NCBI GenBank assembly: GCA_038087875.1
Contig: CM075991.1
Location: forward strand, 7,194,001-7,258,000
DNA length: 64,000 nt
Reading direction: 5' to 3'
DNA from: Malacoraja senta
Lineage: Eukaryota
Below are positions 1 through 50,971 of this stretch, piece after piece. A program made the position numbers and the translations under genes. The first letter of the stretch is position 1; every line of letters starts with the position of its first letter. The notes below the pieces were generated by a model that was not told the origin of the DNA, ran no database searches, and worked only from the letters and a program-made list of their open reading frames with translations.

Positions 1-3000
1 CAACGCAATGGAAGTCAAAATAAGGTTTTTTCCCACCTACAGGTGGGTCACTTGCTACAGTGCCGACTATAGACACTGTAGCCTCACTTTTTTAGTTTTT
101 TTTTTATTACATAAAATCACTTGTTTGTGTTTTGTGTTTAGTGATAAGAATAATATGGACATACCAACAAAAGTTAATAATTCAAAAACTCCCCCAATAC
201 CTAAAGACGTGGGATATGGACGCACCACAAGATTCAAAGGTACTATAATTATTCAAAATGCATGACACCACACAAAAGAACCTAGGAGGAGTCTCATTTT
301 GTAGTTGGAATATAAGAGGTATTAATGAACCTATCAAAAGGGGTAAGATATTAGCTCAGCTAAAAATGTATAATTCTGACATTACCTTCCTACAAGAAAC
401 ACACCTAAAACCTCAGGACCAAGTTAGGCTGAGGGCGAAATGGATAGGTCAAACATACCACTCTTCATTCACTTCAAAATCTAGAGGCACGTCAATTATC
501 ATAAGAAAAGGTATACCATTTAAAGCAAAGAATATTATAACAGATATAGAAGGGAGATACCTAATAGTTAATGGAGAAATCCATGACACTCCACTTACTT
601 TGGTAAATATATATGCCCCTAACTTTGATAACCCCCACTTTTTCAATAAAATCTTCAATATAATTGCAGAGTCAAACTATCAAAATGTTATAATAGGCGG
701 AGACTTTAATTGTGTTTTAGACCCGTACTTAGATAAATCAAGTCAAAAACAGAGAGGGAATATGAAATCGAAAACTGGGGAACTCCTCAATACCTACATA
801 AACAACACTAATATAGCAGATGTTTGGAGAATTGTGAATCCAACTGGCAGGGAATATTCGTTTTACTCAATGGTACATAAGACATACTCACGTATAGACT
901 ACTTTCTGCTGGATACAAAATTAATCCCCCAAACATCTAATGCAATATATCATACAAATTCAATTTCAGACCATTCTCCACTAACTTTCTTTTTAAAACT
1001 GGAAGGATTGTCTAAGAATAATTCATTCTGGAGATTTAACTCTCAAATTTTAAAAGATCCACAAGCGAGTATATATTTAAAAGAACAAATGGAGGTCTTT
1101 TTTCAAACAAATGATACTTCAGATATATCGCCTACTTTACTTTGGGAATCTTTTAAAGCATACATTAGGGGTATTATAATTTCATATCAAGCTTTTCAAA
1201 ATAAAAAGAATAAGAATGAACAAAGACAGTTAGAAGAACTTATTAGACAAATGGATATAGATAATGCTAAAGATCCAACAATAGATAAACATAATAAAAT
1301 AATAATTTTAAAATTTAAATTAAATAAATTATTATCTGCCAAACTTATAAGACTTTTTCAAATTACAAAACAAGAGCACTTTGAATTTGGGGATAAACCG
1401 CATAAACTTTTGGCTCGCCAGCTAAAAAAACGAGAAAAGGAACATACTATACCAAAGATCAAATCAGATAAAGGGGAATTATTAACAACACCGAAGGATA
1501 TTAATAAAAGATTTGCGCAATTTTACGAGAATTTGTATACATCTAAAACGATAATTGATTCCAATAATATCACAAAGTTCTTGGATACCTGTAATCTTCC
1601 AAAGTTAGAGCTGAAGGAACAAGAGGAACTGGGTGCACAAATCTCAATTAAGGAATTAGAAGATACAATAAACTCACTAAAAAATGGAAAAACACCAGGC
1701 CCTGATGGATTTACTAATGAATTTTATAAAAACTTTTATGATAAAATAATACCAAGATTACAAAAAATGTACCAATACGCTTTTAAAAAACGAATACTAC
1801 CTGATACATTAGCGGAATCAACGATTACATTAATACCTAAGAAAAATAAGGATTTAGAAGAACCTGGCTCATATAGAGCTATAGCATTGTTAAACACAGA
1901 TCAAAAAATATTAGCGAAAACATTAGCCAGAAGATTAAGTAAATACATTAGTAAATTAATAAACCCAGATCAGACAGGGTTTATCCCTAAGAGATACTCT
2001 TCTAATAATATGAGACGTCTACTCAACATAATGCACTCACACAAATCTGAAGATCAAGAATTATCAATTATTTCGCTGGATGCTGAAAAAGCATTTGATC
2101 AAGTAGAATGGAATTATATGGATAAAGTATTACAAAAATTTCAACTGGGAGAGAATTTTATTTTATGGATTAAGTTACTATATAACAAACCTACAGCTAG
2201 AATACTTACTAATAACATATTATCCTCGAAATTTCAACTATCAAGGGGAAATAGACAAGGATGCTCATTATCACCACAGCTGTTTGCTCTCATTATTGAA
2301 CCGCTAGCAGGAAAAATTAGAATACACCCTGATATTCATGGATATAATACTAAAGACTCATATAATAAAATATCTTTATACGCGGATGATATATTATTGT
2401 ATATTACAAAACCTCAAATCACTATACCAAATATATTAAATTTAATTGAAGACTTCGGATCTTTTTCTGGATATAGAATAAATTGGAATAAAAGTGAAAT
2501 TATGTCAATAAAACCGAAAGATTCAACACATCTTTTAAAATTCCCTTTTAAAATAGCTACAGAAAAATTTAAATATTTGGGAATCGAAATTACCAGAGCA
2601 TATCAAGGTATGCTCAGGGCAAATTTTGACCCCCTACTTAATAAACTGAATACATTAATTAAATTCTGGAAAACGCTTCCGATGTCTTTAATAGGCCGAA
2701 TAAACGCAATAAAAATGATCTTTTTACCACAAATTTTATACCTATTTCAATCAATTCCTATATACTTACCTAAGAAGTTTTTTAAAAAACTCGACTCAGA
2801 TATCACTAATTTTATATGGGACTATAAATCACATAGAATACAAAAAACCCATCTGAATAAATCTAAAGTATTGGGGGGTCTAGCACTACCCAATTTTATG
2901 TATTATTATTGGTCAGTAAATATTAAAAACATGATTCAACTGATGGATAACTCCGCCCAGCAAGTAGACTGGATTGTAATGGAGAAAGAGGATTGCTCCT

Positions 3001-4466
3001 CTAGAAACATTGGAGCGATCCTCCTCTCTCCAATGAAATTGAATAACATAAACTATAATAAGAACCCAATTATTCATAGTACAATCCGTATTTGGAAACA
3101 AATAAAACAAAATTTAAAATTAAGAAACTTATCACTTTTATTACCTATAGTCAATAACCCTTCGTTTAGTCCTTCTATTATAGATAAAGCTTATACACAA
3201 TGGGATAGACTAGGAATTAAAACGCTTGGTGACTTGTATGAAACTGGAAAATTACTTTCATTTCAACAATTACAAATAAAATATAAACTCGGAAATAATC
3301 AATATTTTAAATACTTTCAAATATGCGACTATTTGAAAAAATATATAAAAGATCATCATAATAACCCAGCAGATGTACTGGACGAGGCAATGCAGACAAA
3401 AGCGGAATCAGCAAACTTAATATCATATTTGTACAATATTATCTTAAATGTACAAATACCATCTACGGAGGGTATCAGAAGAGACTGGGAACAAGAGTTA
3501 GCTATTAAAATTTCAAAGGAAAGTTGGAATGAATACTTATTAAAAGTACATAAATGCTCGATTAATGTAAGACACACTTTAATACAATTTAAAATTTTAC
3601 ATAGATTATATTATTCGAAAACTAAAATTCATAAAATTTTCCCAAACGTATCATCTATTTGTGATAAATGTCAATCCCAAGAAGCAACTATAGCGCACTC
3701 ATTTGTCTTCTGTACAAAAATTCAAAAATTTTGGAATGAAATTTTTGAAATCTTTACAAAGTTATTTAAAACAAGACTGATACCCAAAGCAGAATGGATT
3801 ATCTTCGGAATAACGGAAGATGATCCAGAACTAAATGTGTTTCAAAAGAAATTAATGGATTATGGGTTAATAACTGGAAAAAAGCTAATTCTAAAATTTT
3901 GGAAGAAGGCTCCAATACCAACTATAAATATGTGGATTTCAAATATGTTTGAAACACTACACCTTGAAGAGATAAGACTCCTCCTAGCAGGTAAACCAGA
4001 TCACTTCCACCTGACGTGGTCTGCATTTATAGAATTATTACAAACATAGGGTGCAAAAGTACTTTAAAAAAATAAAAAATTGAGGTCGGGTAAGGGGGGA
4101 TGATAGTTGAAGAGTTGGTATGTCCTATTTACGTGATGCTCAAAAAAAAACATTTGTTTTTCTTTTTTTCTCTCTCTCTTTTCTTTTCTTAGGGCCTATT
4201 TCTTAACTCTTTTTCTTTTTGTTTTTAATTTCGCTCTCATAGGGTCCTCGTCCTTTTTTTTTGTTGTTACATTTTCTACACTTTTCTACACTTGCACTTT
4301 TTCCTTCACTTTCTTCTCTCTTTCAATCTTTTCTTTCTTTAGTGTAAAAAAAATAAATAAAGGGAGTACATTAATTGTAAGAAGATATAAATGACGAGTA
4401 TTAATGTATGTGGCTGTGATGTAATGTACTTCTAATAAATAAAAATTAAAAAAAAAAAAAAAAAAA
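1..4466 (+). mobile_element. L1 retrotransposon (upstream spacer, ORF2, T-rich 3'UTR, poly(A)); 5' part lies outside the window
   Basis: ORF2 followed by ~400 nt 3'UTR, AATAAA-type signals near 4433-4443 and A-tail to 4466; 3'UTR recurs at 26511-26899 and 45437-45790. Confidence 0.93.
258..4049 (+). CDS. L1-clade LINE ORF2 (APE endonuclease, reverse transcriptase, C-terminal zinc knuckle), uninterrupted 1263 aa
   Basis: APE motifs SWNIRG, LQETH, GGDFN, SRIDY, SDH; RT motifs PGPDGF, SLDAEKAFD, RQGC, LYADD, YLG; C-terminal CDKC-x8-H-x4-C. Confidence 0.96.
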   Translation: MHDTTQKNLGGVSFCSWNIRGINEPIKRGKILAQLKMYNSDITFLQETHLKPQDQVRLRAKWIGQTYHSSFTSKSRGTSIIIRKGIPFKAKNIITDIEGRYLIVNGEIHDTPLTLVNIYAPNFDNPHFFNKIFNIIAESNYQNVIIGGDFNCVLDPYLDKSSQKQRGNMKSKTGELLNTYINNTNIADVWRIVNPTGREYSFYSMVHKTYSRIDYFLLDTKLIPQTSNAIYHTNSISDHSPLTFFLKLEGLSKNNSFWRFNSQILKDPQASIYLKEQMEVFFQTNDTSDISPTLLWESFKAYIRGIIISYQAFQNKKNKNEQRQLEELIRQMDIDNAKDPTIDKHNKIIILKFKLNKLLSAKLIRLFQITKQEHFEFGDKPHKLLARQLKKREKEHTIPKIKSDKGELLTTPKDINKRFAQFYENLYTSKTIIDSNNITKFLDTCNLPKLELKEQEELGAQISIKELEDTINSLKNGKTPGPDGFTNEFYKNFYDKIIPRLQKMYQYAFKKRILPDTLAESTITLIPKKNKDLEEPGSYRAIALLNTDQKILAKTLARRLSKYISKLINPDQTGFIPKRYSSNNMRRLLNIMHSHKSEDQELSIISLDAEKAFDQVEWNYMDKVLQKFQLGENFILWIKLLYNKPTARILTNNILSSKFQLSRGNRQGCSLSPQLFALIIEPLAGKIRIHPDIHGYNTKDSYNKISLYADDILLYITKPQITIPNILNLIEDFGSFSGYRINWNKSEIMSIKPKDSTHLLKFPFKIATEKFKYLGIEITRAYQGMLRANFDPLLNKLNTLIKFWKTLPMSLIGRINAIKMIFLPQILYLFQSIPIYLPKKFFKKLDSDITNFIWDYKSHRIQKTHLNKSKVLGGLALPNFMYYYWSVNIKNMIQLMDNSAQQVDWIVMEKEDCSSRNIGAILLSPMKLNNINYNKNPIIHSTIRIWKQIKQNLKLRNLSLLLPIVNNPSFSPSIIDKAYTQWDRLGIKTLGDLYETGKLLSFQQLQIKYKLGNNQYFKYFQICDYLKKYIKDHHNNPADVLDEAMQTKAESANLISYLYNIILNVQIPSTEGIRRDWEQELAIKISKESWNEYLLKVHKCSINVRHTLIQFKILHRLYYSKTKIHKIFPNVSSICDKCQSQEATIAHSFVFCTKIQKFWNEIFEIFTKLFKTRLIPKAEWIIFGITEDDPELNVFQKKLMDYGLITGKKLILKFWKKAPIPTINMWISNMFETLHLEEIRLLLAGKPDHFHLTWSAFIELLQT

Positions 4467-8812: not shown

Positions 8813-9160
8813 TGAAATCTCGCCATAGCATCCGGGGAATTTAAATTCACTGAGTTAAATAAATGAATAAAATGCCCCCATCAATATTTTGAGTGTGAGA
8901 TGATCAGATTGTTGAAGCCCCATCTGCTTCACCAGCATCTGCAATTCCTTGCGTCTACATTTTATTGCTTTGCCAGTATCGTTCAGGAAAGGAAAGGCAA
9001 TGTGGAGTGTGTCCTACTCCAAACCAACAGCATTTGTATATGATGCTCAACTGCCCTCTGAAACGGCCCATTAAACCACTTGGTTCAAGACAATTAGGGA
9101 TAGATAGTAAATACTGGCATTACCAATGGCCCCGAGTCTGTGAACAAATTATAAAAGAAA
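8813..9160 (+). mobile_element. Decayed Deu-SINE (SacSINE1-like)
   Basis: Tail aactgccctctgaaacggccc..aaccacttggttcaagacaattagggat..tggcattacc resembles the shark Deu-SINE tail as I recall it; not aligned. Confidence 0.5.
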
Positions 9161-9872
9161 CGGTTAATGACAAGAATGCTGTATTGGGCAATGGAGATGG
9201 ATTGATCATATAATAATCTCCTTCTTAATAGACCTTTACCAATGAGCAGAGATATGAAAATCAGTGTTCCATGGAGATGGAACTGTGTTTTAAGTAGTTT
9301 CTGACTATTAAGACAATTTGTGTAAACAGCACAGTTCCTGAATTTGTGCTTTTAATTACTAACTCTTCCCCTTGGGGGAAGAAAGTGCTTAAATAACTAT
9401 GTCTCAATGTCATTCTGGTACTGTTTCCAGGGCAAATTGAATCAGTAATGCTAGCCCTCTGCTTAACACTCAGGAAGGGTTTATTGACATCAAGACATTC
9501 TGGTTTTAGAAATCTTATCTTATAAGGAGAAACCAGCTTATCACTGGCTGAATGAACACATAGGAATTAAGTTGCTTTTATTTTTCTCACTGTAATACTT
9601 GGGGAGAAAAAGTTGTTGTTATAAGCAGCCAAATATTTACAAGTATATAAAATTATGAGAGGCATAGATAGGGCAGTGAGTCAGAACCTTTTTATCCAGG
9701 GTGGAAATATCAAATTAAAGGGCGCAGCTTTAAGGTCATTGGGGCACAGATTAAAGCAGATGCAAGGGGCAAGTTTTTTTTTAACTGTTTCTATGTTCCT
9801 TGCTTGATGTCATGTTTCAAGTGAAATATCTGCAGAGTGATGGTCATAACAAATGCAAACCTCCCTTGCCCT

Positions 9873-10118
9873 CAGATGCTGGTTTACACCAAAGATAGAC
9901 ACAAAAAACAAGATTAACTCAGCGGGTCAGACAACATCTCTGGAGAAAAGGAATCAGTGACGTTTCAGGTCGAGTCCCTTCTTCTGACCTCGATCCGGTC
10001 TCGACCCAAAACGTCACCTATTCCTTTTCTCCAGAGATGCTGTCTGACCCGTTGAGTTACTCCAGGTTTTTGTGTGTATCTTAGGTGAAAACCAGCATCT
10101 GCAGTTCCTTCCTACACA
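9873..10118. mobile_element. Palindromic Penelope-derived element
   Basis: Arms cagatgctggttt..aactcagcgggtcagacaacatctctggagaaaaggaat and attccttttctccagagatgctgtctgacccgttgagtt..aaaccagcatctg. Confidence 0.75.
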
Positions 10119-29037: not shown

Positions 29038-29091
29038 GGGGTGGGAGATTGAAACCTTCACATGGTCTGCCCTGTTTCGACAAATGCAATC
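29038..29091 (+). ncRNA. HDV-like ribozyme, minimal P4, decayed copy
   Basis: P1 GGGGUGG/CUGCCCU, P2 GAUUGAA/UGCAAUC (one mismatch), P3 ACC/GGU, L3 UUCACAU, J4/2 CAAA. Confidence 0.7.
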
Positions 29092-29178
29092 AACCCGGCG
29101 TGCACAATCAAATAAGATCAAATAGAACAAGTTGTCCTGCAACTTTAGGCTGTGCACGCCATAGGCAAGGAGAAGAAG
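29038..29178 (+). mobile_element. Ribozyme-headed short retroposon, family A, copy 1
   Basis: 11-bp TSD aataaatctgg (29027-29037, 29179-29189); (GAA)n tail; homologous to 47753-47891. Confidence 0.85.
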
Positions 29179-45793: not shown

Positions 45794-46597
45794 ATGCCCA
45801 AATCCCCGATTCTCTTCGCACACGTGCGTCCTGACCCGCTAAGTGTTTCCAGTACAACTCTGTTTTTGTTACTGGGTTTCCAGCGATTGCAGCTTTTTGA
45901 TTTTCTCGAAGTTTCCAGTGTTTCACAAGCTGCTGACAGAATAATTTTCAGAATATCGATATCTCTCGACCTGCGAGTTGAGTTGAAAGAAAAATCTTCA
46001 AACCTTTGAAAACAATCAACAACAACACTCCACAAGCAATCCCGCACATTGAATCTGGCTCCAGGAAACTTTCATCTCTGGAGATGAAACAGCCTATCCA
46101 AAAACCTATAGAGTTTAATGCTGAACTACAAAGTCAATGATTATGAACAGTAGAGCAACATGGCCTGCTGACTGACTGTTCGCGAAAGGAATCTTGTAAC
46201 TGTGAGGAAACGATTATTTTTAATTAAAATTTTGATTGTCGTGTACCTGAGTGAGCCAACAGGATATGAAAAGCTAACGATAGCAAAAGAACACTTGACC
46301 TGCATAAAGCTTCCTGCTCTGACCTTCCCAGAGTGGTGCACAACTGTGCTTCAAACCTTCACAAAGCCTCTCACTTGCTCCGAGCTTGATAGGTAGCAAA
46401 GACTTTAGGATCTGAAGATTTGGATGCCTGTGAGATAAATAATTCACCCACCCCCAAGCTAGCAGAGTGGAAAGAGCTGAAAAAGAAGTAGAATAAAAAG
46501 TAAGCACAGGGAAAGAATGGCTTAATGTATCGAGGAGGGGATCAGTATCTTTGCTGGTGTGAGGAATCAAAGCATTCAGACTTTAGATTTTAGACTT

Positions 46598-46764
46598 CTT
46601 CTTCCTCGTGACCGGCCATCTTCTATATCACGTCTTTCCGGTCGGTCAGTGACGGTTGACGGTCGGTGGTTGCAGAATTGGCTACTTCAGTCAGTCACTG
46701 TGGTACAGTTTCTGTCGTCAGCATTGCCCGGGATGCGCCACGTGGAGGCTTCTGCTTGCATCCC
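46598..46764 (-). mobile_element. Ribozyme-headed short retroposon, family B
   Basis: Inserted in a V-SINE tail, flanked by agattttagactt (46585-46597) and agatttttagactt (46765-46778); 3' tail cacgaggaagaagaag. Confidence 0.82.
46672..46764 (-). ncRNA. HDV-like self-cleaving ribozyme (genomic-HDV-like architecture)
   Basis: P1 GGGAUGC/GCAUCCC, P2 GCAGAA/UUCUGC, P3 GCC/GGC, L3 UCCACGU, P1.1 CC/GG, J1.1/4 GCAA, P4 UGCU/AGUA, J4/2 GCCAA. Confidence 0.88.
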
Positions 46765-47072: not shown

Positions 47073-47752
47073 CTCAGCTCTTGAGTAGAAAACATTTGTG
47101 ATTTTTATCACTGAGATCATTTTCCCAGGAGGAACATTTTCCAGGAGGTGACCAATTTAATTCTCCCAAATGGACGTAGATCTGGAAATGCAAAAGGGAA
47201 TATGTTTGATTTGAAAAACAGGAAACCTGGTGAGCCTATTTTTGGCTGGAAGCTTGTTTCTTGTGGAACTCAATATCATTTGATTTCTCTGAGCACAACC
47301 TAAATAAAGCCAATACATTATGTATGCCTGTAGTTCCCAGTCACACTCCTGGAAGAAGTCAGTTATTTTGTGCTGTCAAGAGATTTTATGAACCTCCATA
47401 AAGAAAGGCGTTAGGACATGGAGAAAACATAAAACGAGAATGTTATTTACTGCCGAAGGAAATCGTTGAATCTCCACTGTATTTCTTCCAGTTTCGTGTG
47501 GAGATACAGCATGGAAACAGGCCCTTCGGCCCACCGAGCCCACTCTGACCATCAGTCGCCCTTGTTCGCACTAGTTCCCTGTTATCCCACTTTCGCAGCC
47601 ACTCCCTACCGATTAGGGATCGGTTTACAGCGGCCCAATTAACCTACAAACCCGCACGTTTTTGGAGTGTGGGAGGAAACGGGAGTATGCGGAGGAAACC
47701 CACGCAGGTCGCGGTGAGAAGGTTCAAACTCCACGCATCCGTACCCGAGGTT

Positions 47753-47806
47753 GGGGCGGGAGATTGCAACCTTCACGTGGTCCGCCCTGTTTCGACGAAT
47801 GCAATC
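47753..47806 (+). ncRNA. Minimal 54-nt HDV-like self-cleaving ribozyme
   Basis: P1 GGGGCGG/CCGCCCU (G1-U wobble), P2 GAUUGCA/UGCAAUC, P3 ACC/GGU, L3 UUCACGU, P4 reduced to U(UUCG)A, J4/2 CGAA. Confidence 0.86.
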
Positions 47807-47891
47807 AACCTGGTGTGCTCAATCAAATAAGATCAAATAGAACAAGTTGTCCGACAACTTTAGGCTGTGCACACCATCGCAAGAAAAAGAA
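47753..47891 (+). mobile_element. Ribozyme-headed short retroposon, family A, copy 2
   Basis: 11-bp TSD gtacccgaggt (47741-47751, 47892-47902); tail cgcaagaaaaagaa. Confidence 0.88.
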
Positions 47892-48638
47892 GTACCCGAG
47901 GTCAGGATCGAACCCGGGTCTCTAGCGCTGTGAGACAGCAGCTCCACCAGCTGCACCACTGGACTGCCTAAGTCATTTTTTTTTAAGATCACTTGTACGT
48001 CAATTTGTTTGAAACTGCACCGTCTGCAATCAGTTCATTCCAAGAGTTCTGGAAGATTGATATTGTGCTATCTTGATGCCAATTTTGATGTTAGGCTGCA
48101 GAAAACTAATGAATATACAGGCGGAATGAGATTTAGTGGACATGATTTGTGGACTTAGATCCTGCTGACTTTCACCACAGGATTTCCAGGCAGTACACGG
48201 TCTCGCCTTGCACTGTGACCAGCAGTTTGGACTAAGACAAATTAGACTCATTAGTTATATATTTCACGCAAAGCTACAACTTGAAGAGTAACAAATTCTC
48301 TAATTGCCATGGTGATGATGGTGCAGATTAATTTAAATTAGTAAAACTGATAATAATGGTCTGTAGAATAAATTTAAATCTGCACACACTTTTCAAATGT
48401 TATTGCTCACAGTGACCACAAGTAGAAGTATTGAGTTTGAAGAAGGGCCCTGACACAAAACATCACCTATCCATTTTCTGCAGAAATGCTGCCTGACCCG
48501 CTGCGTTACTCCAGCATTTTTCGTCGATCTATGGGATAAAACATCATCTTTTTTGTTACTTAAGAATTCTTACCATTTTATCTCCAAAGTTCAAGACAAA
48601 TTCTGAGGGTGTAACCATTTTCAAGCTTGTTTGTTTTT

Positions 48639-48645
48639 TGTGTGT

Positions 48646-48718
<73 letters not shown>

Positions 48719-49179
48719 TGTGTGTGTGTGTGTGTGTGTGTACGTGTGTGTGTGTGTGTGTGTACGTGTGTGTGTGTGTGTGTGTGTGTACGTGTGTGTG
48801 TGTGTGTGTGTGTACGTGTGTGTGTGTGTGTGTGTACGTGTGTGTGTGTACGTGTGTGTGAGTGTGTGTACGTGTGTGTGTGTGTGTGTGTGTGTGTACG
48901 TGTGTGTGTGTACGTGTGTGTGTGTGTGTACGTGTGTGTGTGTACGTGTGTGTGTGTGTACGTGTGTGTGTGTGTGTGTACGTGTGTGTGTGTACGTGTG
49001 TGTGTGTGTACGTGTGTGTGTGTGTGTGTACGTGTGTGTGTGTGTGTGTGTACGTGTGTGTGTGTGTACGTGTGTGTGTGTGTGTACGTGTGTGTGTGTG
49101 TGTGTGTACGTGTGTGTGTGTGTGTGTGTGTGTGTACGTGTGTGTGTGTGTGTGTGTACGTGTGTGTGTGTGTGTGTGT

Positions 49180-49256
<77 letters not shown>

Positions 49257-49317
49257 TGTGTGTGTGTGTGTGTGTGTGTACGTGTGTGTGTGTACGTGTG
49301 TGTGTGTGTGTGTGTAC

Positions 49318-49348
<31 letters not shown>

Positions 49349-49365
49349 TGTGTGTGTGTACGTGT

Positions 49366-49454
<89 letters not shown>

Positions 49455-49469
49455 TGTGTGTGTGTGTGT

Positions 49470-49524
<55 letters not shown>

Positions 49525-49565
49525 TGTGTGTGTGTGTGTGTGTGTGTGTACGTGTGTGTGTGTGT

Positions 49566-49628
<63 letters not shown>

Positions 49629-49875
49629 TGTGTGTGTGTACGTGTGTGTGTGTGTGCGTGTGTGTGTGTGTGTGTACGTGTGTGTGTGTACGTGTGTGTG
49701 TGTGTACGTGTGTGTGTGTGTGTGTACGTGTGTGTGTGTGTGTGTGTACGTGTGTGTGTGTGTACGTGTGTGTGTGTGTGTGTACGTGTGTGTGTGTGTG
49801 TGTGTACGTGTGTGTGTGTGTGTGTGTGTGTGTACGTGTGTGTGTGTGTGTGTGTACGTGTGTGTGTGTGTGTGT

Positions 49876-49956
<81 letters not shown>

Positions 49957-49977
49957 TGTGTGTGTGTGTGTGTGTGT

Positions 49978-50046
<69 letters not shown>

Positions 50047-50087
50047 TGTGTGTGTGTGTGTGTGTGTACGTGTGTGTGTGTGTGTAC

Positions 50088-50118
<31 letters not shown>

Positions 50119-50187
50119 TGTGTGTGTGTGTGTGTGTACGTGTGTGTGTGTGTGTGTGTGTGTACGTGTGTGTGTGTGTGTGTGTGT

Positions 50188-50242
<55 letters not shown>

Positions 50243-50261
50243 TGTGTGTGTGTGTGTGTGT

Positions 50262-50300
<39 letters not shown>

Positions 50301-50347
50301 TGTGTGTGTGTGTGTGTGTGTGTGTACGTGTGTGTGTGTGTGTGTGT

Positions 50348-50416
<69 letters not shown>

Positions 50417-50461
50417 TGTGTGTGTGTGTGTGTGTACGTGTGTGTGTGTGTGTGTGTGTGT

Positions 50462-50496
<35 letters not shown>

Positions 50497-50547
50497 TGTG
50501 TGTGTGTGTGTGTGTGTACGTGTGTGTGTGTGTGTACGTGTGTGTGT

Positions 50548-50586
<39 letters not shown>

Positions 50587-50699
50587 TGTGTGTGTGTGTG
50601 TGTGTACGTGTGTGTGTGTGTGTGTGTGTGTGTACGTGTGTGTGTGTGTGTGTGTGTACGTGTGTGTGTGTGTGTGTGTACGTGTGTGTGTGTACGTGT

Positions 50700-50736
<37 letters not shown>

Positions 50737-50799
50737 TGTGTGTGTGTGTGTGTGTACGTGTGTGTGTGTGTGTGTGTACGTGTGTGTGTGTGTGTGTGT

Positions 50800-50844
<45 letters not shown>

Positions 50845-50852
50845 TGTGTGTG
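48639..50852. repeat. 2.2-kb compound microsatellite (TG)n punctuated by TACG
   Basis: Direct inspection; roughly 85 TACG interruptions by hand count and about 6 GAG interruptions. Confidence 0.97.
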
Positions 50853-50971
50853 AGTACACAGTGAACTTTTGTTTCTCATTTATTATATTGTTTCCAGTGT
50901 ACTATGTTTACACATTCTGTTGTGCTGCTGCAAGTAAGTATGTCATTGCTCTATCTGGGACATATGACAAT
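50853..50971 (+). mobile_element. Rex1-type 3' tail, continuing at 51737-51758 after a CR1 insertion
   Basis: ctgttgtgctgctgcaagtaag..gggacatatgacaata | aaacactcttgactcttga. Confidence 0.72.

What the first reader, a model, noticed from the sequence alone, without database searches (positions are those of the whole stretch)
47753..47891. 139-nt retroposon headed by a 54-nt minimal HDV-like ribozyme almost lacking P4 (family A)
Seen: GGGGCGG-GA-GAUUGCA-ACC-UUCACGU-GGU-CCGCCCU-G-UUUCGA-CGAA-UGCAAUC. P1 has the canonical G1-U wobble, P2 is 7 bp and P3 3 bp. P1.1 is reduced to one C-G pair and P4 to a single pair capped by UUCG. The candidate catalytic C is at 47796. A perfect 11-bp TSD (gtacccgaggt) brackets the element, with only one extra T before G1. 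There is no tRNA A/B box. Inferred: this is an unusually small natural HDV-fold ribozyme acting as the head of a vertebrate SINE-like element, with stems unrelated in sequence to family B 1 kb away.
Basis: partly seen in the sequence, partly recalled or inferred. Interest (0 to 1): 0.9.

Follow-up and report, generated by a model that had tools for sequence, protein, structure and literature searches.

The report
Tiny retroposon headed by self-cutting RNA
This is one of roughly ten thousand copies of a 139-base jumping element that starts with a stripped-down self-cutting RNA fold instead of the usual promoter, and it probably borrows the copying enzyme of a larger jumping gene in the same genome.

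Summary
47753-47891 is one copy of a 139-nt retroposon with about 9,000-10,000 places in a 1.94-Gb genome. It has a (GAA)n tail and target duplications of mostly 11-12 nt. In 27 of 31 copies with a duplication, it ends within 1 nt of G1. The first 54 nt fit a CPEB3-type HDV-like fold without P4, and there are no Pol III boxes.

The head is not an orphan. An RTE-type LINE in the same genome shares the tail and duplication length. It starts at the first base of a same-layout fold: 17 of 20 core bases identical, all seven P1 pairs different, P1.1 flipped C-G to G-C, C1-G instead of G1-U, P4 about 95 nt.

Best reading: the ribozyme cuts the element out of read-through transcripts and the RTE protein pastes it. 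Cleavage is untested. Copies show no two-sided covariation, J1/2 is only 2 nt, and no direct parent LINE was found.

Ribozyme-headed non-autonomous retroposons and P4-less HDV ribozymes are each known. The combination at this size and copy number was not found in my searches. New variant of a known kind.

The parts
47741..47751 (+). left copy of the 11-nt target-site duplication
   Evidence: identical to 47892-47902; only two occurrences in the window
47752..47752 (+). one extra T between duplication and G1; U is also the commonest -1 base in other copies
   Evidence: -1 base T in 19 of 37 copies, 3 of 31 copies with a duplication have one extra base
47753..47806 (+). 54-nt HDV-like fold, CPEB3 type, without P4; predicted cleavage 47752/47753
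   Evidence: descriptor hit with no mismatch; 95.8% of cells paired in 25 copies, 18-46% when partners are slid
47753..47759 (+). P1 5' strand (pairs with 47782-47788), G1-U36 wobble
   Evidence: pair 5:32 occurs as U-G, U-A or C-G
47760..47761 (+). J1/2 linker, 2 nt; variable in sequence and length (2-4 nt) among copies
   Evidence: GA 21, AA 10, 3-4 nt 6, other 3 of 40
47762..47781 (+). P2 5' strand, P3 and loop L3 (47772-47778, same 7 letters as the Rfam CPEB3 consensus)
   Evidence: 17 of 20 letters identical to the RTE-a LINE head at the same offset
47789..47795 (+). G37 (P1.1 pair with C22 = 47774), U38 (likely U-U with U21), then a 5-nt linker in place of P4
   Evidence: length variants
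47796..47799 (+). J4/2 with the candidate catalytic C47796; the next base is free to vary
   Evidence: C kept in 96 of 100, next base G 58, T 26, A 13, C 3 (hand tally); G47797T common in runs X1, X6, X14
47800..47806 (+). P2 3' strand
47807..47880 (+). 3' body, a long hairpin closed by 47811-47821/47866-47876; carries most subfamily differences
   Evidence: similarity to the RTE-a 3' end not significant
47881..47891 (+). (GAA)n tail, one repeat changed in this copy
47892..47902 (+). right copy of the target-site duplication
47490..47975 (-). older tRNA-type SINE copy interrupted by the insertion; its B box (47904-47914) lies next to the target site
   Evidence: other window copies of this SINE run across the site without the insert; boxes
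29038..29176 (+). second, more decayed copy of the same family (91% identical), also starting at G1 next to its duplication

Best explanation
A promoterless, non-autonomous retroposon that uses a minimal HDV-like ribozyme as its head and rides on the RTE-type LINE that ends in (GAA)n. Steps: (1) a copy is transcribed by read-through from host DNA (inferred); (2) the 54-nt double pseudoknot folds and C44 catalyses cleavage just before G1, giving every transcript the same 5' end (inferred from anatomy; the coincidence of element start and G1 is shown); (3) the compact fold shields the uncapped 5' end, so most new copies are full length (inferred; the high full-length share is shown); (4) the RTE protein nicks a target, primes reverse transcription on the GAA tail and leaves a 10-13-nt duplication (tail and duplication shown, the enzyme inferred). 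How the RNA's 3' end is made is unknown. The head shares ancestry with the RTE 5' fold but lost P4 and differs in P1; it is not a plain deletion product of either RTE family whose 5' end I saw.
For: Copy number: 5' core 18-mer 8833 places, 3' 18-mer 9874, reversed controls 1 each. Ends: of 40 copies taken in genome order, 3 lack the 3' half, 6 show no duplication, and 27 of the other 31 have the duplication ending within 1 nt of G1; lengths 8-13, 20 of 31 at 11-12. Frequent variants in the head fall at tolerant places: J1/2, pair 5:32 (U-G 46 vs U-A 46 of 100, against 6 for the opposite CpG change), the P4 remnant and the base after the catalytic C. No Pol III boxes. Partner: RTE-a has endonuclease, RT and DUF6451, is about 3.2 kb in the one full-length copy seen (L055), ends in (GAA)n right after its stop, and has 10-13-nt duplications in 9 distinct insertions (picked by eye from 23 rows); these features match the RTE element SR3 (PMC1291365, passages). 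The 20 RTE-a 5' ends fetched start at or next to base 1 of a fold with the same layout: 17 of 20 core identities (11 of 13 in the P2/P3 strands, p about 1e-5), seven different P1 pairs, P1.1 G-C for C-G, one P2 pair C-G for U-A. Family B is a second short element with the same tail that also starts at G1 of an HDV fold (13 of 15 copies). Precedent: R2 SIDE ribozymes cleave in vitro (PMC3414825); an HDV-like 5' fold raises insertion efficiency of R2 templates (PMC11331408, abstract).
Against: No cleavage data. No pair with a change on both sides among 25 copies; covariation score not above shuffles (121 of 500). Rfam gives no ribozyme hit for this head even at E up to 10. J1/2 is 2 nt; in the Agam-2 ribozyme 0 nt was dead, 1 nt poor, 3-7 nt better (PMC4908430, Results). 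Retention of the catalytic C is not significantly higher than at a control CpG (3 vs 12 against 9 vs 15, Fisher p 0.31). In this window copy 50 nt of upstream SINE are predicted to sequester the head (P1 probability about 1e-6), so this copy may be inactive. The 3' body does not significantly resemble the RTE-a or RTE-b 3' end (1236 and 914 of 5000 shuffles). The RTE-a head has C1-G and an A-A mismatch in P3, so its own activity is doubtful. No LINE with this exact head or tail was found.
Confidence: 0.65

Rival explanations
1. Same mechanism, ordinary origin: the element is a bipartite internal-deletion derivative (5' and 3' ends joined) of an RTE family that is extinct, low-copy or absent from this assembly, like RTE-N or R2 SIDE elements.
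For: Head related to RTE heads; RTE, Ingi and R2 are the clades known to make such derivatives (PMC5786205, passage); RTE-a itself has many short internally deleted copies (532 candidates for its 5' end against 30 for its endonuclease region).
Against: Three exclusion-pattern searches found no long element with this head or tail (each would miss a family that matches one excluded letter, about 32% or 56% sensitivity at best); 3' similarity not significant; the third RTE family's 5' end was not seen.
Confidence: 0.4
2. The fold is real but no longer needs to cut: it serves as a nuclease shield or protein-binding element, and the 5' end is set by something else, such as an internal promoter overlapping the fold as in Pr77 of L1Tc.
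For: The RTE-a head also marks the exact 5' end although it has C1-G and a P3 mismatch; short J1/2; catalytic C not significantly over-conserved; Pr77 has a dual promoter and ribozyme role (PMC3383444, search listing only).
Against: All recalled catalytic requirements are met in both short families (G1, U20-G25, C-N-A-A), and amplified variants change the base after the C but not the C.
Confidence: 0.17
3. A Pol III SINE with a decayed tRNA head; the uniform 5' end is a transcription start and the pseudoknot is incidental.
For: Uniform 5' ends are expected of Pol III SINEs; a purine at +1 with a pyrimidine often at -1; the common form has no run of four T.
Against: A and B boxes no better than shuffles (1472 of 2000); no tRNA, 5S or 7SL hit; 18 pairs in HDV order at base 1 in two families with different stems; homology to a LINE head.
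Confidence: 0.06
4. The fold is a chance match in a repeat.
For: Descriptor written by me; no covariation within the family; 1 chance hit in 20 control windows.
Against: The fold starts at the element's first base, and related heads keep the pairs with different letters.
Confidence: 0.02

Closest known systems
R2 SIDE and R2/R1 SIDE (Eickbush and Eickbush 2012, PMC3414825; abstract and passages seen)
   Same: Non-autonomous, promoterless, 5' HDV-like ribozyme plus a 3' part read by a LINE protein; the hybrid type joins a ribozyme and a tail of different origin.
   Different: SIDEs are rare, tied to rDNA sites and keep the R2 ribozyme; this element is dispersed, about 10,000 places, 139 nt, with a 54-nt head.
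Bipartite non-autonomous RTE LINEs such as RTE-N2_Lch, Bov-A, MAR4_MD (Kojima 2018, PMC5786205; introduction, first half of results and discussion passage seen)
   Same: Short, RTE-mobilised, microsatellite tail, start at an RTE-like 5' end that may self-cleave.
   Different: Those align along their length with a parent LINE; here only the core of the fold matches RTE-a, P1 differs fully, P4 is gone and the 3' body has no significant match.
NARTc and SIDER elements with the 77-nt L1Tc/ingi ribozyme (PMC3383444, PMC4035085; search listings only)
   Same: Short non-autonomous elements with a compact HDV-like ribozyme at base 1.
   Different: Trypanosome, Ingi clade, head doubles as promoter; longer head.
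CPEB3 ribozyme (Rfam RF00622 consensus; PMC4836649 passages)
   Same: G1-U36, same L3 letters, one G-C plus U-U P1.1, same J4/2 letters.
   Different: CPEB3 has a P4 hairpin, other P2 and P3 sequences and is a single intronic locus; the model does not hit this head.
Minimal HDV-like and theta ribozymes (PMC10879173 and its preprint; passages), P4-less silkmoth R2 and abalone ribozymes (PMC3774820, passage)
   Same: P4 absent or replaced by about 5 nt.
   Different: Theta ribozymes sit behind phage tRNAs, and that search reported none in human, mouse or protist genomes; none of these is described as the head of a high-copy short retroposon.

Membership tests
HDV-like ribozymes | Nested double pseudoknot P1, P1.1, P2, P3 in order | tested here: met
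   cross-family pair changes
HDV-like ribozymes | G at +1 paired with U or C; U20 and G25 in L3; C-N-A in J4/2 | tested here: met
   (rule set partly recalled, partly from PMC4836649 passages)
HDV-like ribozymes | Covariation among family members | tested here: inconclusive
   none on both sides in 25 copies; present only against RTE-a and family B heads
HDV-like ribozymes | Match to an Rfam HDV-type model | tested here: not met
   family B does match below the cut-off; the three models shown there include a P4 region
HDV-like ribozymes | Self-cleavage before +1 that needs the catalytic C | not testable with these tools
   needs an in vitro assay
Minimal (P4-less) HDV-like ribozymes | P4 helix absent | tested here: met
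   7 nt between P1 and the catalytic C
Theta ribozymes | Adjacent to a phage tRNA 3' end | tested here: not met
   flanks are unrelated genomic targets
Non-LTR retroposons (TPRT) | Variable target duplications, 3' repeat tail, occasional 5' truncation | tested here: met
   short 5'-truncated copies among L092-L101
Classical SINEs (tRNA, 5S, 7SL head) | Small-RNA head with Pol III internal promoter | tested here: not met
Bipartite non-autonomous RTE | 5' part homologous to an RTE 5' end | tested here: met
   17 of 20 core identities at the same offset; limited to the core and J4/2-P2'
Bipartite non-autonomous RTE | 3' part homologous to an RTE 3' end beyond the repeat | tested here: not met
   against RTE-a and RTE-b; other RTE families not excluded
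Bipartite non-autonomous RTE | A parent LINE carrying both ends | tested here: inconclusive
   none found; searches of limited sensitivity
RTE clade (for the partner LINE) | About 3.2 kb, endonuclease plus RT, very short 3' UTR of short repeats, 10-12-nt duplications | tested here: met
   against the description in PMC1291365
RTE clade (for the partner LINE) | Placement in the RTE clade of an RT tree | not tested
   no named RTE reference sequences were returned

The most novel reading that the evidence does not exclude
A class of SINE-sized retroposons whose head is a free-standing minimal ribozyme instead of a Pol III gene, present here as two families with different stems on one LINE. The host RTE LINEs carry a flipped version of the same fold (C1-G, G-C in P1.1) that standard G1 descriptors miss, so self-cleaving or cleavage-derived heads would be far more common in animal genomes than catalogued; family B would be a living mobile relative of the mammalian CPEB3 ribozyme.
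Probability: 0.3. Interest if true: 0.8.

Novelty: new variant of a known kind. Interest (0 to 1): 0.56.

Why it matters
If it cleaves, this is a complete retrotransposition template of 139 nt, and about 10,000 genomic places carry a ribozyme close to the smallest HDV fold. It would show that a ribozyme can replace the Pol III promoter as the head of a successful short retroposon. Thousands of natural variants in different flanks give a ready test set for how J1/2 length, loss of P4 and upstream pairing tune activity. The LINE and short-element heads form a natural covariation pair that tests whether a C1-G HDV fold can cut. Many copies in introns could also cut host pre-mRNA, which is testable.

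Tried and rejected
Rfam at the gathering threshold over the window: no hits; at E up to 10 around the element only chance hits, including a phage DGR model, rejected. Metagenome pattern scan: 1 match, no P1 or P2 pairing by eye, rejected as chance. Sequencing-run search: no RNA holder listed; the four runs laid are contigs and cannot show starts or expression; rows with under 5 words that I did not lay were not used. Search for a LINE with this head or tail: 50, 38 and 4 hits, all read as family variants, deletions or short truncated copies; 10 of the 38 were fetched. Three of those 10 looked like a new upstream sequence but are truncated copies inserted in another repeat. Target specificity for the SINE B-box region: rejected, flanks are unrelated in 70 loci. 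A terminal 17-nt hairpin like that of RTE-a: suggested by eye, not supported by folding or shuffles. Selection on the catalytic C: not significant. First pair count used a P2 register shifted by one column and was redone (then 90). PDB and protein-atlas searches gave no clade name for the LINE; no paper holds 'DUF6451'. Papers not held: Ruminski 2011, Webb 2009, Webb and Luptak 2011, Cerrone-Szakal 2008, Jimenez 2015. Earlier-findings look-ups by place and by sequence were blank.

Full report
Observation. A descriptor for the HDV double pseudoknot, written from recalled rules, finds two places in the window: 47753-47806 (+) and family B at 46764-46672 (-). It finds 1 hit in 20 Markov copies of the window. 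Rfam has no hit for this head. The element sits inside an older tRNA-type SINE on the opposite strand, and other copies of that SINE run across the site without it. A second copy lies at 29038.

It is a large, young repeat family. The window lies in a 1.94-Gb genome. An 18-mer from the head with up to one mismatch occurs 8833 times and an 18-mer from the 3' body 9874 times, against 1 each for the reversed patterns. The ratio of 0.89 suggests most copies are full length. The 40 best-scoring matches are 96-100% identical. Sequencing runs from 9 coded organisms hold half or more of its words, one of which may be the source; contigs of two further organisms also align. I did not test the host taxon. 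The surrounding repeats recall cartilaginous-fish SINEs, from memory only.

The 5' end is fixed at G1. I took the first 40 exact core matches in genome order, so they were not chosen for their ends, although copies truncated inside the core are excluded by design. Conservation starts at +1. Three copies lack the 3' half and six show no duplication. Of the other 31, the duplication abuts G1 in 21, lies within 1 nt in 6 more, and is 4-8 nt off in 4. Lengths are 8-13 nt, 20 of them 11-12. Contigs from four runs also break off into unrelated flanks mostly at 47752-47754, some at 47756-47758, and run into a GAA tail. A uniform start also fits Pol III transcription. However, A and B boxes score no better than 1472 of 2000 shuffles, while the host SINE has both.

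The fold. L3 and J4/2 have the same letters as the Rfam CPEB3 consensus. CPEB3 has one G-C and one U-U pair in P1.1 (PMC4836649, passages), and fast natural ribozymes with one standard pair over U21-U38 are known (PMC13635239, passages). Frequent variants respect the fold. J1/2 varies in letters and length. Pair 5:32 is U-G or U-A: hand tally of the first 100 of 2326 matches gives CG 46, CA 46, TG 6, other 2 at positions 31-32. The base after the catalytic C is G 58, T 26, A 13, C 3, while the C is kept in 96 of the first 100 of 4535 matches. Against this: there is no two-sided change in 25 aligned copies and the covariation score is not above shuffles. The retention of the C is not significantly above a control CpG (Fisher p 0.31). 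A 2-nt J1/2 lies between the poor 1-nt and the better 3-nt linkers of Agam-2 (PMC4908430, Results section read). With 50 nt of its own flank, the window copy is predicted to pair with the upstream SINE, while 13 of 21 other copies form P1 or P2 with probability over 0.5 in a model without pseudoknots.

The partner. A DUF6451 search gave 772 candidates, 150 scored; I read 40 loci. They fall into three LINE families. RTE-a ends in (GAA)n straight after its stop codon and RTE-b in (GTAA)n. RTE-a carries endonuclease, RT and DUF6451 matches (the endonuclease match is under Pfam's cut-off). One full-length copy spans about 3.2 kb, and 9 distinct insertions, picked by eye from 23 rows with duplicates merged, have duplications of 10-13 nt. 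This fits the RTE element SR3 (3211 bp, 10-12-nt duplications, short repeat tail; PMC1291365, passages). No tree was built.

The link to the LINE head. I fetched 20 of 41 listed matches to the RTE-a 5' end. All begin at or next to the first base of a fold laid out like the short element's head. Positions 10-29 are identical in 17 of 20 letters, and in 11 of 13 for the P2 and P3 strands, which the fold does not constrain (p about 1e-5). All seven P1 pairs differ yet pair. P1.1 is G-C in place of C-G, a P2 pair is C-G in place of U-A, and the six letters up to and through J4/2 are the same. RTE-a differs in having C1-G, an A-A mismatch in P3, a P2 register shifted by one base and a P4 region of about 95 nt. 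The single RTE-b head seen (L059) is similar. So the heads share ancestry, and the comparison supplies the covariation the family lacks. But the element is not a plain deletion of RTE-a or RTE-b: its 3' body matches neither beyond the tail, and three exclusion searches found no LINE with its head or tail.

Family B, 1 kb away, is a second such element: 443 places, about 170 nt, GAA tail in 14 of 15 copies, start at G1 in 13 of 15. It has a two-pair P1.1 and a long P4 region, and matches the CPEB3 model at E 8.9e-5, below the cut-off. Two families with different stems both starting at G1 argue that the fold is what defines the 5' end.

Mechanism. Shown: copy number, tail, duplications, start at G1, absence of Pol III boxes, kinship of the head with RTE heads. 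Inferred: read-through transcription, cleavage before G1, protection of the uncapped end (an HDV-like fold improves R2 template insertion; PMC11331408, abstract only) and copying by the RTE-a protein. Unknown: formation of the RNA 3' end. I put the whole chain at 0.65, activity of the master heads at about 0.75 and RTE-a as mobiliser at about 0.7.

Comparison with what is known. Ribozyme-headed non-autonomous elements are described for R2 (PMC3414825, abstract and passages) and trypanosome L1Tc/ingi (listings only). [quoted passage not shown] A review says some SINEs use hammerhead or HDV-like ribozymes (PMC6765202, passages). P4-less forms are known from phages, silkmoth R2 and abalone (PMC10879173, PMC3774820, passages). 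Paper searches returned no description of this family or of a P4-less ribozyme heading a high-copy short retroposon. The key Luptak-laboratory papers, their supplements, Repbase and Dfam were not available and could already list it. One earlier AI finding in another genome reached a similar RTE reading (e1-7832045); it is a lead, not support.

Verdict. Real, probably functional, a new variant of a known kind. It works like an R2 SIDE or bipartite RTE derivative, but fails the 3'-homology test for membership among the latter. Interest 0.56.

Noticed in passing
window 46596-46764 (-); L142-L156: Family B: about 170-nt ribozyme-headed retroposon, 443 places, GAA tail. Its P2 strands are letter for letter those of the Rfam CPEB3 consensus (E 8.9e-5, 25.1 bits, cut-off 35), a possible mobile relative of the mammalian CPEB3 ribozyme.
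   Followed up: partly
L071-L090 about 55-200; L055; L059: RTE-type LINE heads form an HDV-layout fold with C1-G and a flipped P1.1 and start exactly at its first base; descriptors that require G1 miss them.
   Followed up: partly
L076, L078, L084, L072; RTE-a has many internally deleted short copies: 532 candidates for its 5' end against 30 for its endonuclease region.
   Followed up: partly
L092-L094, L098-L099: Subfamily with a shorter, different middle of the 3' body that keeps the closing stem and the whole head.
   Followed up: partly
G000:C5:3239914-3271497: Five copies with the same linker variant within 32 kb, in both orientations, probably multiplied by local duplication.
   Followed up: no
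window 249-4049 (+): Open frame of 1266 codons with endonuclease, RT and a weak zf-RVT match in AT-rich DNA: an apparently intact LINE of another clade.
   Followed up: no
window about 48630-50900: Long GT microsatellite regularly interrupted by AC, over 2 kb; it causes spurious long frames.
   Followed up: no
L102-L141 3' junctions: Many target duplications begin with A or AG letters that continue the GAA tail, suggesting priming by short pairing between tail and target.
   Followed up: no
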